Below, piece by piece: positions 1,975-3,953 of a stretch of DNA of 5,560 nucleotides; position 1 is the first letter of the stretch; each line of letters begins with the position of its first letter. This DNA is from a virus (lineage: Duplodnaviria; Heunggongvirae; Uroviricota; Caudoviricetes), in IMG/VR virus record IMGVR_UViG_2734482785_000015; one strand, written 5' to 3'. Made by a program: the position numbers and the translations under genes. Below the pieces are notes generated by a model that did not search any database, was not told where the DNA came from, and was given only the letters and a program-made list of their open reading frames with translations.

Positions 1975-2120
1975 TGGTGTGAGGCGTAACGCGATGAACA
2001 TAACAAAAAGCGCCCCGTTGCCGGAGCGCCCTTGCGAACAATTAACCTACTGCGCAAAAAATGAATCAGTGCAGTGGGATTATATCAACCGTGTAGCGAA
2101 GCGCCACAATTGCCGGATAA

Positions 2121-2153
2121 CAGGCAAAACAAAGGCCACCTGCTACGGTGGCC
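2121..2153 (-). terminator. Rho-independent terminator (minus strand)
   Basis: GC stem GGCCACC (2134-2140) / GGTGGCC (2147-2153) with a 6-nt loop. On the minus strand it is followed by UUUGUUUUG (complement of 2121-2133). No T run follows on the plus strand. Confidence 0.55.
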
Positions 2154-2508: not shown

Positions 2509-2814
2509 TTATTCTGATTCTTTGGCCTTGCGGCGCTGGAGTTCTTCACGTGCGACGGTGACGAGCTGCCCGATCTCCTCGGCAGCTTTGACTCCGATTT
2601 TTTCCACCTGCGCCAGCGCATCGAGCGAAGAAACCAGGGGATTTTCTCCGCTTCCTTCTGCCTGGCGGCGGGCGATCTCACCGCGCATGGCGGTTACTAT
2701 GAATCCGGCGTTGCTTTCACCGTCCAGTTTTACGGATTCCATGCCTTCAAAAGCATCATGTGGGATACGAATTGAAATCTGTTTTGATTTGTCGTTGATA
2801 GTGTTTTTTGCCAT
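2509..2814 (-). CDS. Putative ribbon-helix-helix (CopG/Arc/MetJ-like) DNA-binding regulator, candidate repressor of the divergent operon
   Basis: Minus-strand ORF. The best start is the ATG at 2812-2814 (101 aa, MAKNTINDKSKQISIRIP...), 6 nt downstream of AGGAGA (complement of 2821-2826). The track start at 2853 adds 13 residues without a ribosome-binding site. The N-terminus KQISIRIPHDAFEGMESVKL...SNAGFIVTAMRGEIARR fits an RHH beta-strand, helix, helix pattern. It diverges from an operator-bearing promoter region. Confidence 0.7.
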   Translation of the reverse strand: MAKNTINDKSKQISIRIPHDAFEGMESVKLDGESNAGFIVTAMRGEIARRQAEGSGENPLVSSLDALAQVEKIGVKAAEEIGQLVTVAREELQRRKAKESE

Positions 2815-2836: not shown

Positions 2837-2913
2837 TGTGATTCAGTATACACAAAAAAGAATCACAAAAAATACTTGACCTGTGATTCAGTTAAATTTA
2901 ATTTAAATCACAC
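2837..2913. promoter_or_regulatory. Divergent promoter region with two inverted-repeat operator units
   Basis: Unit 1: TGTGATTCA (2837-2845), 13-bp AT-rich spacer, AGAATCACA (2859-2867). Unit 2: TGTGATTCA (2882-2890), 14-bp spacer, AAATCACA (2905-2912). Plus-strand sigma70-like promoter: -35 TTGACC (2875-2880), 17-bp spacer, -10 TAATTT (2898-2903), overlapping unit 2. Minus-strand -10 TATACT (complement of 2845-2850) overlaps unit 1. Confidence 0.6.
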
Positions 2914-2937
2914 CTCAGTAAGAGGATGTAAACGACA

Positions 2938-2971
2938 ACGCCCCGAACTGTTTGCGGCAGTAGCGGGGCGT
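2938..2971 (+). other. Stable stem-loop in the 5' leader of the Icd-like operon (no U tract)
   Basis: ACGCCCCG (2938-2945) pairs with CGGGGCGT (2964-2971); an inner CTG/CAG pair sits within the loop. It lies between the predicted promoter and the ribosome-binding site of the first gene. It is not followed by a T run, so it is not a canonical intrinsic terminator. Confidence 0.4.
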
Positions 2972-3007
2972 CTAACCACCAACGATAGAAAGCGTATCGA
3001 GGTAGCT

Positions 3008-3214
3008 ATGAGAAATCATACCATACACCCGCAAGGGCGGGACTCGCACAACCTGAATAAATACATCTGGCGTTTTATCGCCCTGAGTACGGCACAACCG
3101 CGCGTGATTACCATCGTGGCCACCAGCGAACAGGAAGCGCGCCAGCAATCTCCTGATGGCTGCGTGATGGTATTCGCCGCCCGTATTCGCCAGGAGGTGC
3201 ACCATGTGCAATAA
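3008..3214 (+). CDS. Icd-like (Ash family) small protein; positional analogue of P4 kil
   Basis: 68-aa ORF with GAGG (2999-3002) 5 nt upstream of ATG 3008. The translation MRNHTIHPQGRDSHNLNKYIWRFIALSTAQPRVITIVATSEQEARQQSPDGCVMVFAARIRQEVHHVQ matches my recollection of the host-cell-division-inhibitor Icd-like proteins of P4-like prophages. It is the C-terminal in-frame part of the artefactual 1979-3214 track ORF. Confidence 0.8.
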   Translation: MRNHTIHPQGRDSHNLNKYIWRFIALSTAQPRVITIVATSEQEARQQSPDGCVMVFAARIRQEVHHVQ

Positions 3215-3440
3215 CACCCGTCCGGACGCAGCCGCCGAAGCTATCAAAACGCTAATGCACGCGCTGATTGATATTTCTGTTATCGCGGACATGGCACATA
3301 AGCACGCCACCAGTGAAACAGAATATGCCGGGGCTTTCGTTCCTCACTCACTGGCTGTTATGCAATTTAGTGCTGATATGGCGCTGAATGAGGCAGGCAA
3401 AATTCTTACCGCAGATATTCAAGGGGCGCACCATGCATGA
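3204..3440 (+). CDS. Hypothetical protein (78 aa)
   Basis: ATG 3204 is preceded by GGAGG (3194-3198) and overlaps the Icd-like stop by 11 nt, consistent with translational coupling. No family recognised. Confidence 0.6.
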   Translation: MCNNTRPDAAAEAIKTLMHALIDISVIADMAHKHATSETEYAGAFVPHSLAVMQFSADMALNEAGKILTADIQGAHHA

Positions 3441-3665: not shown

Positions 3666-3953
3666 ATGAAACAGAAAAATTCTGGCTTTACTGCCAGCGG
3701 CCCCGCTCGGTCTGAAATCCGCCCCGGCGATATTTTCAAAGATAACTACGGCGGCACGATAACGATAAAAGACGTGGAAGAACGGCGCATCACCTACCGT
3801 CGTGAAGGCTACGACTATGACTGCGTGATGCCTGTTTATCAGTTCCGGCGTGATTTTAAGCTGGTGGGCCATCGTAAAGCCGTAAATCAGAAACGTGCAG
3901 CAAGCTATATCCGCAAAATCCGTGAAATGCTGGTCGCAGGGGGTAAGAAATGA
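3666..3953 (+). CDS. Hypothetical protein (95 aa), tentatively DUF4222-like
   Basis: ATG 3666 lies 5 nt after the previous stop; the TGA stop at 3951-3953 overlaps the ATG of the downstream replication gene (ATGA). The motif ITYRREGYDYDCVMPVYQFRRDF resembles small proteins seen upstream of primases in enterobacterial P4-like islands; this is recollection only. Confidence 0.6.
   Translation: MKQKNSGFTASGPARSEIRPGDIFKDNYGGTITIKDVEERRITYRREGYDYDCVMPVYQFRRDFKLVGHRKAVNQKRAASYIRKIREMLVAGGKK

What the first reader, a model, noticed from the sequence alone, without database searches (positions are those of the whole stretch)
2938..2971. Stable GC-rich stem-loop in the 5' leader of the Icd-like operon
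An 8-bp GC stem with an internally structured loop lies between the predicted promoter and the ribosome-binding site of the first gene, and has no U tract. In P4 the operon is controlled by RNA-RNA interactions that cause premature termination, so a structured leader here could be a processing site, an antisense-RNA target, or an attenuator working with a factor. The sequence GCGCCCCG recurs at 2010-2017 downstream of alpA; this may be coincidence.
Basis: partly seen in the sequence, partly recalled or inferred. Interest (0 to 1): 0.4.

Follow-up and report, generated by a model that had tools for sequence, protein, structure and literature searches.

The report
Terminator of a hidden antisense RNA
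The GC-rich hairpin is real, but comparison with about 170 related elements shows it is selected on the opposite strand, where it most likely ends an unannotated ~80-nt antisense RNA covering the ribosome-binding site of the first (Icd-like) gene of a phage-satellite-like island.

Summary
The hairpin at 2938-2971 exists and is non-random (-20.3 kcal/mol, z -3.8).

- **Pairing is conserved.** Across 91 distinct homologues, 12 of its 14 pairs change on both sides while the sequence varies freely.
- **The wobbles point to the minus strand.** There are 184 G.U cells on the minus-strand RNA and 1 on the plus strand. The minus-strand fold is more stable in 41 of 43 variants.
- **The tail fits a minus-strand terminator.** On the minus strand the hairpin is followed by a U-rich tail. 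On the plus strand it is not.
- **A promoter-like element lies upstream on the minus strand.** About 85 nt upstream is a -10 element of form TATNNT (TGgTATGAT in the window, 3023->3015). It holds a fixed position in all but one of the 48 unique upstream sequences, the exception carrying a 10-nt duplication. A synonymous codon position is fixed to keep it.

The predicted RNA (about 3009->2927, minus strand) has two hairpins. It is fully complementary to the Shine-Dalgarno sequence and AUG of the Icd-like gene. It has no Rfam match, and its core sequence appears in no relevant searchable paper.

Among loci chosen only by the Icd-like protein, 79 of 80 carry it. The region matches in 1276 of 5426 complete E. 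coli genomes and occurs in ten other Enterobacterales genera.

Expression and repression are inferred, not shown. I file it as a new member of a known kind, a cis-antisense RNA.

The parts
2937..2972 (-). Terminator hairpin of the predicted antisense RNA; this is the finding's stem-loop (2938-2971) plus a closing G.U pair. On the minus strand there is a 9-bp outer stem (G2972.U2937 to G2964-C2945), a 4-bp inner stem and a 7-nt loop.
   Evidence: Folds. Covariation: 12 of 14 pairs change on both sides, 95% of cells are paired, and 0 of 500 shuffles reach this. G.U cells are 184 on the minus RNA and 1 on the plus RNA. The minus fold is more stable in 41 of 43 variants.
2925..2938 (-). U-rich tail after the hairpin on the minus strand (UUGUCGUUUACAUC). 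The predicted 3' end of the RNA is around 2930-2926.
   Evidence: Sequence. In 91 homologues the mean is 4.95 U in the 9 nt 3' of the hairpin on the minus strand, against 1.07 on the plus strand. Many relatives have stronger tracts such as UUUGUUUUUU.
2973..3008 (-). 5' hairpin of the predicted antisense RNA (UAGCUACCUCGAUA / 7-nt loop / UAUCGUUGGUGGUUA). It contains the anti-SD ACCUC and the complement of the AUG.
   Evidence: Fold of the 85-nt RNA is -34.2 kcal/mol, z -4.46. Helix 1 is 98.9% paired but nearly invariant. Pairwise diversity is 0.022.
2988..2994 (-). Hypervariable 7-nt apical loop of the 5' hairpin (CGCUUUC in the window).
   Evidence: Pairwise diversity is 0.30, against 0.022 for the flanks and 0.125 for synonymous sites of the neighbouring gene. 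There are at least 12 loop variants.
3015..3023 (-). Predicted antisense promoter: extended -10 TGgTATGAT (hexamer 3020->3015). The predicted start is at A3009 or A3007.
   Evidence: TATNNT sits at a fixed offset in 47 of the 48 unique upstream sequences, including lineages with different peptides. L052 carries a 10-nt duplication that shifts it. The complement of A(-11) is the third position of codon 4 and is always T. No -35 is recognisable. The consensus scan did not list the site.
3024..3061 (-). Conserved block upstream of the antisense -10, overlapping codons 6-18 of ORF1. It contains the hairpin CCCGC/GCGGG at 3028-3041. Its role is unknown; it may be promoter-upstream or a regulator site.
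   Evidence: Third-codon-position diversity is 0.005 in codons 2-18, against 0.125 in codons 19-68.
2999..3010 (+). Shine-Dalgarno GAGGT (2999-3003) and ATG (3008-3010) of ORF1. This is the inferred target of the antisense RNA.
   Evidence: Read from the sequence. It is fully complementary to the predicted RNA by construction.
3008..3214 (+). ORF1, 68 aa: an 18-residue N-terminal cassette fused to an Icd-like domain (residues 19-62).
   Evidence: NCBIfam NF033153 phage_ICD_like, E 8.6e-20. In relatives the same first 18 codons are fused to 'ash family' or other ORFs.
2876..2912 (+). Sense promoter (TTGACC 2876-2881, TAATTT 2899-2904; start near 2911) overlapped by the operator pair TGTGATT 2882-2888 / AATCACA 2906-2912.
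   Evidence: My reading. Relatives show the same layout of TTGAC(A/G), 17 nt, then a -10. The promoter is not experimentally mapped.
2509..2814 (-). Divergent YlcI/YnfO-family gene, the presumed repressor. A second operator pair lies at 2837-2844 / 2860-2867.
   Evidence: NCBIfam NF041551, E 3.7e-18. The repressor role is inferred from position only.

Best explanation
The hairpin is the Rho-independent terminator of a short (about 80-85 nt) cis-antisense RNA. The RNA is transcribed on the minus strand from an extended -10 promoter embedded in codons 3-6 of the Icd-like gene. Its predicted span is about 3009 to about 2927.

The RNA has two hairpins and is perfectly complementary to the sense leader, the Shine-Dalgarno sequence and the AUG of ORF1.

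Inferred mechanism:
- While the YlcI/YnfO-type repressor keeps the sense promoter low, the antisense RNA accumulates and pairs with any sense transcript.
- Pairing blocks ribosome binding to ORF1 and probably creates an RNase III substrate.
- ORF1 heads a chain of overlapping genes leading to the DUF927 replication helicase, so loss of its translation should silence the whole operon. This would work through translational coupling or Rho polarity.
- The convergent promoters lie about 110 bp apart and may also interfere with each other.

Shown computationally: the structure, covariation, strand of selection, U-rich tail, conserved -10, complementarity to the RBS, and distribution.

Inferred: that the promoter fires, that the hairpin terminates, and that the RNA represses.
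For: 1. Pairing is conserved with covariation. In helix 2, 12 of 14 pairs change on both sides, 95.1% of cells are paired, and 0 of 500 shuffles reach the observed values. Sliding the 3' partners gives only 33-53% paired.

2. The strand is the minus strand. G.U cells number 184 on the minus RNA. Only 1 A.C cell would be G.U on the plus RNA. Mean folding energy is -23.3 kcal/mol on the minus strand against -17.0 on the plus, and the minus fold is more stable in 41 of 43 variants.

3. The tail is U-rich only on the minus strand: 4.95 against 1.07 U in 9 nt.

4. A TATNNT -10 holds a fixed position in all but one of 48 unique upstream sequences from E. coli-type elements and ten other genera. The one exception carries a 10-nt duplication. 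The synonymous third position of codon 4 is fixed.

5. Third-position diversity is 0.005 in codons 2-18 against 0.125 downstream. This shows a non-coding constraint exactly where the promoter lies.

6. The 85-nt minus-strand RNA folds at -34.2 kcal/mol, z -4.46. The same stretch on the plus strand gives -26.6, z -2.04.

7. Of 80 loci chosen only by the Icd-like core, 79 have a model match on the minus strand just upstream.

8. The minus-strand ORF that ends at the UAG before the hairpin is not conserved, so the transcript is non-coding.
Against: - None of the data show an RNA. No transcript ends were available to me.
- In the window itself the two strands fold equally well (-21.0 against -20.9). 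The strand call therefore rests on relatives.
- The window's U tract is interrupted (UUGUCGUUU), and the consensus terminator scan did not list the site.
- The promoter has no recognisable -35, and TGn is missing in some lineages.
- The alignment used for pair counts was fitted to the model structure.
- The first two collections were anchored on an exact core motif, which inflates the apparent core conservation. The Icd-anchored set only partly corrects this, because it contains close relatives at 90-96% identity.
Confidence: 0.7

Rival explanations
1. The hairpin acts in the sense mRNA leader as a processing site, a stabiliser, a pause or attenuator, or a site bypassed by an antiterminator such as an AlpA-family protein.
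For: The hairpin lies inside the predicted sense leader and still folds there (-20.3 kcal/mol in the window; mean -17.0 in relatives). An alpA gene is present. A Pseudomonas AlpA-family protein lets RNA polymerase bypass a leader terminator (abstracts of PMC7969949 and PMC9371919, listed).
Against: - There is no U tract on the plus strand (1.07 U in 9 nt).
- Relatives accumulate C.A and A.C mismatches in the plus-strand stem. These are G.U pairs on the other strand, at a ratio of 184 to 1.
- In some relatives the plus-strand hairpin drops to between -9 and -13 kcal/mol, while the minus-strand one stays between -20 and -24.
Confidence: 0.08
2. The minus-strand promoter inside ORF1 is a distal, establishment-type promoter for the divergent YlcI/YnfO gene, like lambda PRE. 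The hairpin is then a leaky terminator or attenuator that sets how much transcription reads through into the repressor gene. This is compatible with an antisense role for the short product.
For: On the minus strand the order is promoter, hairpin, operator region, then the repressor gene. The interrupted U tract in the window suggests incomplete termination.
Against: - The repressor gene has its own conserved -10-like element (CAGTATAC on the plus strand) next to the operators in many modules.
- The RNA module is found joined to many unrelated repressor and operator modules, with homology breaking at the hairpin. That fits an autonomous unit ending there.
Confidence: 0.12
3. The inverted repeat works at the DNA level, as a protein-binding palindrome, a cruciform or a recombination site. 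This would explain why homology between elements breaks there.
For: Megablast matches of other E. coli elements start at about 2930, 2941, 2958 or 2963-2968, which is at or inside the hairpin.
Against: - The arm sequences are not conserved; only pairing is.
- A DNA site would not show one-strand-specific G.T tolerance at 184 to 1.
- The loop and spacing vary.
Confidence: 0.03
4. The hairpin ends a minus-strand protein-coding gene: the 112-aa ORF 3310->2972, whose stop codon UAG directly precedes the hairpin.
For: An ORF of 112 aa ends at 2972-2974, immediately before the stem.
Against: - In relatives the same frame is open for between 0 and 168 codons.
- The UAG is replaced by AAG, CAG or GAG in Yersinia, Morganella, Serratia and others.
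- The codon-position diversity pattern fits plus-strand coding.
Confidence: 0.01

Closest known systems
sar RNA of phage P22 immI (antisense to the ant ribosome-binding region). Comparison from my own knowledge of the P22 literature, not checked with the tools.
   Same: A short (about 70 nt) cis-antisense RNA with its own promoter inside the early operon. It overlaps the RBS of a downstream gene, ends at an intrinsic terminator, and sits next to a divergent small repressor gene and operator-controlled promoter.
   Different: There is no sequence or Rfam relationship. The target here is the first gene (Icd-like) of a satellite replication operon. The promoter lies inside the target's own first codons. 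There are two hairpins, one with a hypervariable loop.
P1 immI c4-icd-ant and P4 CI RNA / seqA (Rfam C4 RF01695 and isrK RF01394)
   Same: RNA-level control of an operon that begins with, or contains, an Icd-type gene. In P1, blocking icd translation shuts off the downstream gene (my own knowledge). P4 immunity is summarised in PMC4825925 and PMC3632133.
   Different: C4/CI are processed from the sense transcript and act on repeated target sites. This RNA is encoded on the opposite strand. The window has no C4 or isrK match. Ash-type relatives carry both the antisense module and isrK plus C4 further downstream. P4 itself and L204 lack the antisense module.
CopA/CopT-tap-repA control of IncFII plasmid R1, and related plasmid antisense RNAs. 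Comparison from my own knowledge.
   Same: An antisense RNA of about 90 nt with stem-loops blocks translation of a small leader ORF to which the replication gene is coupled. Loop sequence defines specificity.
   Different: This is an integrated satellite-like island, not a plasmid. Coupling of ORF1 to the DUF927 helicase gene is inferred only from overlapping start and stop codons. No loop-specificity data exist.
Type I toxin-antitoxin pairs such as hok/sok. Comparison from my own knowledge.
   Same: A cis-antisense RNA covers the translation start of a gene whose product can harm the cell, here a cell-division inhibitor family.
   Different: Icd-like proteins are not small membrane toxins. 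The gene heads a multi-gene operon under a protein repressor. No evidence exists for a stable-mRNA and unstable-RNA logic.

Membership tests
Rho-independent (intrinsic) terminator, minus strand | GC-rich stem with a short loop | tested here: met
   There is a 9-bp outer stem, 7 of them G-C, a 4-bp inner stem and a 7-nt loop. The stem-loop stretch alone folds at about -21 kcal/mol.
Rho-independent (intrinsic) terminator, minus strand | U-rich tract immediately 3' of the stem | tested here: inconclusive
   The window has the interrupted tract UUGUCGUUU. Relatives average 4.95 U in 9 nt and many have a run of 6 or more U. The consensus scan did not list the window site.
Rho-independent (intrinsic) terminator, minus strand | Ends transcripts in vivo or in vitro | not testable with these tools
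   No transcript data were available.
cis-encoded antisense regulatory RNA | Own promoter on the strand opposite the target | tested here: met
   A TATNNT -10 (TGgTATGAT in the window) is conserved at a fixed offset in all but one of 48 unique upstream sequences, and a synonymous site is fixed to keep it. Activity was not measured.
cis-encoded antisense regulatory RNA | Overlaps a functional site of the target mRNA | tested here: met
   The predicted RNA (3009->2927) is complementary to SD 2999-3003 and AUG 3008-3010.
cis-encoded antisense regulatory RNA | Conserved secondary structure supported by covariation | tested here: met
   Helix 2 covaries strongly. Helix 1 is almost invariant, which neither supports nor contradicts it.
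cis-encoded antisense regulatory RNA | The RNA is made and changes target expression | not testable with these tools
   Needs a Northern blot, RNA-seq or reporter assays.
P4/P1-type immunity RNAs (Rfam C4 RF01695, isrK RF01394) | Match to the family covariance model | tested here: not met
   There is no hit at E up to 10 anywhere in 2900-3100 on either strand. Both families are found in P4 and in ash-type relatives, downstream of the module.
Sense-strand leader terminator or attenuator | Hairpin followed by a U tract on the sense strand, with pairing maintained on that strand | tested here: not met
   The plus strand has 1.07 U in 9 nt. Relatives carry plus-strand C.A and A.C mismatches.
Any Rfam 15 family | Covariance-model match | tested here: not met
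   nothing on either strand at the hairpin or across the predicted RNA.

The most novel reading that the evidence does not exclude
The conserved module comprises the translation start, the antisense promoter and the two-hairpin RNA. It may be a portable RNA-based specificity system for phage satellites. The invariant stem would present a hypervariable 7-nt loop that defines which co-resident elements cross-repress each other, as in plasmid incompatibility groups. Up to 6 copies occur per E. coli genome. Alternatively, the invariant single-stranded GUUGGUGGUUAG could act in trans on a helper phage or host mRNA.
Probability: 0.15. Interest if true: 0.7.

Novelty: new member of a known kind. Interest (0 to 1): 0.5.

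Why it matters
The region matches in about a quarter of complete E. coli genomes and is present in at least ten other Enterobacterales genera, yet the predicted RNA is not annotated and is not in Rfam.

If the RNA is made, many P4-like or PICI-like islands have a second, RNA-level lock on their replication and Icd operon beside the protein repressor. This differs from the well-studied P4 CI RNA system.

That would bear on three things:
- how satellites stay silent and how sharply they switch on;
- how toxic Icd-type genes are tolerated;
- how genome annotation treats the first 60 nt of these genes, where synonymous sites are frozen by an overlapping promoter.

It also shows that a 'leader hairpin' can be a feature of the opposite strand. 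G.U asymmetry in homologues is a cheap way to tell.

Tried and rejected
- **Rfam:** a permissive search of the window (E up to 10) found nothing at the site.
- **Phage records:** a distant search found no match to the RNA region.
- **Literature:** a full-text search for the core sequence and its reverse complement gave only two unrelated hits on one 13-mer. Searches on P4-like with antisense or sRNA, on Icd-like, and on EcCICFT073 with AlpA found no description of this RNA. Two of these were poorly targeted and returned noise.
- **Minus-strand protein gene:** rejected, because the ORF is not conserved.
- **DNA palindrome:** rejected on the strand-specific wobbles.
- **GCGCCCCG recurrence:** not an exact repeat of the stem.
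- **RNAalifold on the MAFFT alignment:** it misaligned the inner part of the variable hairpin. I realigned with a covariance model.
- **PDB sequence search of the YlcI/YnfO protein:** nothing found. Its fold and repressor role remain inferred.
- **Loop comparison within genomes:** I looked by eye at whether co-resident copies carry different 5' loops. There are only about nine same-genome pairs among the loci, which is too few for a test.

Full report
**The window**

The window carries an integrase (1-1242), an AlpA-family gene (1768-1974) and a divergent YlcI/YnfO-family gene (2814->2509). An operon on the plus strand follows. It starts with a 68-aa Icd-like ORF (3008-3214), continues with small overlapping ORFs including a DUF4222 protein, and reaches a DUF927 helicase-type gene from 3950. 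This is a P4-like or PICI-like integrative island.

Between the divergent genes lie two operator-like inverted repeats of TGTGATT(C). There is also a sigma-70-type sense promoter: TTGACC 2876-2881, a 17-nt spacer, and TAATTT 2899-2904. This promoter is my reading, and relatives show the same layout.

**The observation**

The hairpin at 2938-2971 is real. It folds at -20.3 kcal/mol, z -3.76, and 0 of 200 shuffles fold as well. It sits in the sense leader and has no U tract on the plus strand.

The claimed recurrence of GCGCCCCG is inexact. That 8-mer occurs only at 2010-2017, and the stem reads ACGCCCCG. The 2010-2017 copy belongs to another minus-strand terminator-like hairpin.

**Homologues**

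The sequence CTAACCACCAACGATA lies immediately 3' of the hairpin on the plus strand.

A longer pattern retrieved 19 loci from Xenorhabdus, Serratia, Yersinia, Erwinia, Edwardsiella, Morganella, Photorhabdus, Providencia, Rahnella and Symbiopectobacterium. It also gave four hits outside Enterobacterales, about the number I estimated for chance matches.

In E. coli, the 156-nt region matches in 1276 of 5426 complete genomes, with up to six places per genome.

In all these relatives the hairpin sequence differs widely but pairing is kept. The repressor and operator module upstream of the hairpin is highly mosaic, and homology between E. coli elements breaks at or inside the hairpin.

**Which strand**

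This is the decisive result.

- Among 43 distinct hairpin variants, the minus-strand RNA fold is more stable in 41. The means are -23.3 and -17.0 kcal/mol. Predicted G.U pairs number 110 on the minus strand and 10 on the plus strand.
- I built a covariance model of the minus-strand RNA and aligned 94 matches, 91 of them distinct. In the hairpin helix, 12 of 14 pairs change on both sides and 95.1% of cells are paired. No shuffle out of 500 reaches the observed measures, and slid controls fall to 33-53% paired.
- In that helix, 184 cells are G.U on the minus RNA. Only one cell is A.C, which would be G.U on the plus RNA.
- The 9 nt after the hairpin hold 4.95 U on average on the minus strand, against 1.07 on the plus strand. 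Tails such as UUUGUUUUUU occur in relatives.

The window's own hairpin folds equally well on both strands (-21.0 against -20.9). That is why a reader of this window alone could not see the asymmetry.

**A promoter for the minus-strand transcript**

About 85 nt upstream on the minus strand lies TGgTATGAT (3023->3015). At the same offset from the conserved CAUAGCU, 47 of the 48 unique upstream sequences carry TATNNT (TATGAT, TATAAT, TATATT, TATAGT or TATGCT). L052 has a 10-nt duplication that shifts the offset. The set includes lineages whose ORF1 peptide differs: MRNHT, MLNHT, MFQYTF, MYKYTF and MRNYTE.

The complement of the key A(-11) is the third position of codon 4 (CAT or TAT). It is never the synonymous C.

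I also took 63 loci chosen only by the Icd-like core. There, third-position diversity is 0.005 in codons 2-18 against 0.125 in codons 19-68. A non-coding constraint therefore overlaps the start of ORF1.

No -35 is recognisable, and the TGn extension is absent in some genera. The promoter is a prediction.

**The predicted RNA**

The stretch 3009->2925 folds into two hairpins at -34.2 kcal/mol, z -4.46. The same stretch read on the plus strand gives -26.6, z -2.04.

- The 5' hairpin contains ACCUC (anti-SD) and the complement of the AUG.
- Its 7-nt loop is hypervariable, with diversity 0.30 between flanks at 0.022.
- The second hairpin is the finding.

The minus-strand ORF that happens to end at the UAG before the hairpin is not conserved, so the transcript is non-coding.

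Rfam 15 has no match on either strand. The core sequence appears in no relevant searchable paper; the only two hits, on one 13-mer, were unrelated.

**Association with the Icd-like operon**

Of 80 IMG/VR loci retrieved with the Icd-like core alone, 79 have a model match on the minus strand just upstream.

- 64 are of the window's type.
- 15 are 'type B', with the same terminator hairpins, a different 5' domain carrying CCUC in the loop, and a TATGCT -10.
- The single exception, L204, is a P4-type locus whose upstream DNA resembles the seqA/CI-RNA region that Rfam identifies in P4 and L002 (compared by eye).

P4 itself lacks the module. Ash-type relatives carry the module and also the isrK and C4 RNAs further downstream. 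The window has neither isrK nor C4. The P4 RNA-immunity analogy therefore does not apply to this window.

**Mechanism (inferred)**

The RNA most likely pairs with the sense leader and blocks ribosome binding at ORF1. The 85-bp duplex would be an RNase III substrate.

ORF1 heads a series of overlapping ORFs. Losing its translation should therefore reduce expression of the replication gene, through coupling or Rho polarity. The convergent promoters may add transcriptional interference.

The closest analogues are P22 sar, P1 c4-icd-ant, R1 CopA-tap-repA and type I antitoxin RNAs. These comparisons rest on my own knowledge. They are functional analogies, not family membership.

**Rivals**

- A sense-leader function, including AlpA-type antitermination, is disfavoured by the strand asymmetry and the missing U tract.
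- A lambda PRE-like role, with read-through into the repressor gene, is not excluded. It is compatible with the antisense role.
- A DNA-level palindrome and a minus-strand protein gene are rejected.

**Limits**

- There are no expression data.
- The U tract in the window is interrupted.
- The pair counts come from a model-fitted alignment.
- Two of the three homologue sets were anchored on the conserved core. The third set contains close relatives.

**Verdict**

The interpretation needs a change of strand.

The best reading is a conserved, widespread, unannotated cis-antisense RNA whose terminator is the hairpin. I put the confidence at about 0.7 for the antisense-terminator reading and lower for the repression mechanism. 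I class it as a new member of a known kind.

Noticed in passing
window 3011-3061: Third codon positions of codons 2-18 of ORF1 are almost invariant (diversity 0.005), against 0.125 further into the gene. The block contains a small hairpin, CCCGC-AAGG-GCGGG, at 3028-3041. The constraint extends well beyond the -10 element, so there may be a regulator site or an RNA structure.
   Followed up: partly
window 2988-2994: The 7-nt loop between CGATA and TATCG is hypervariable (diversity 0.30, at least 12 variants) inside an otherwise invariant block. This is higher than neighbouring synonymous sites. It may be a specificity determinant.
   Followed up: partly
L012 10475-10556; L191, L192, L195, L206, L212-L224 at about 1204-1286: There is a second, 'type B' version of the RNA. 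It has the same terminator hairpins, some identical to the window's, but a different 5' domain: AUAAUCGUUACCUCAUUUAACGGUUUGGUUAG, with the anti-SD in the loop. It lies upstream of a different first ORF (MAGTQHTQTHPKF...). L012 carries both types about 800 nt apart.
   Followed up: partly
window 3008-3061, compared with L002 4079-4135: The same SD, ATG and first 18 codons (MRNHT.HPQGRDSHNLNK) are fused in frame to different downstream ORFs. These are Icd-like here, and an 'ash family' ORF followed by isrK and C4 RNAs in L002, L012, L053 and L095. The junction is always right after AATAAA. It looks like a portable translation-start and antisense cassette.
   Followed up: partly
window 2006-2033 and 2134-2153, minus strand: Two terminator-like hairpins with U tracts lie on the minus strand between alpA and the YlcI/YnfO operon. 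The second gives a sub-threshold isrD match (22.4 bits, against a gathering score of 37).
   Followed up: no
window, whole: The 7-mer CGCCCCG occurs 6 times on both strands, against 1.13 expected. None of 200 shuffles reaches 6. Two copies are the hairpin arms and one is in the 2006-2033 hairpin. The others (745, 3720, 5446) are unexplained.
   Followed up: no
window 2837-2867 and 2882-2912: There are two inverted-repeat operator candidates (TGTGATTC...GAATCACA and TGTGATT...AATCACA). They overlap the divergent promoters. In relatives the repeat sequence changes with the repressor module while the layout stays the same.
   Followed up: partly
window 3204-3214, 3433-3440, 3950-3953: Successive ORFs of the operon overlap by a few bases. 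The start of each lies within or next to the stop of the previous one. This is consistent with translational coupling from ORF1 down to the DUF927 gene.
   Followed up: no
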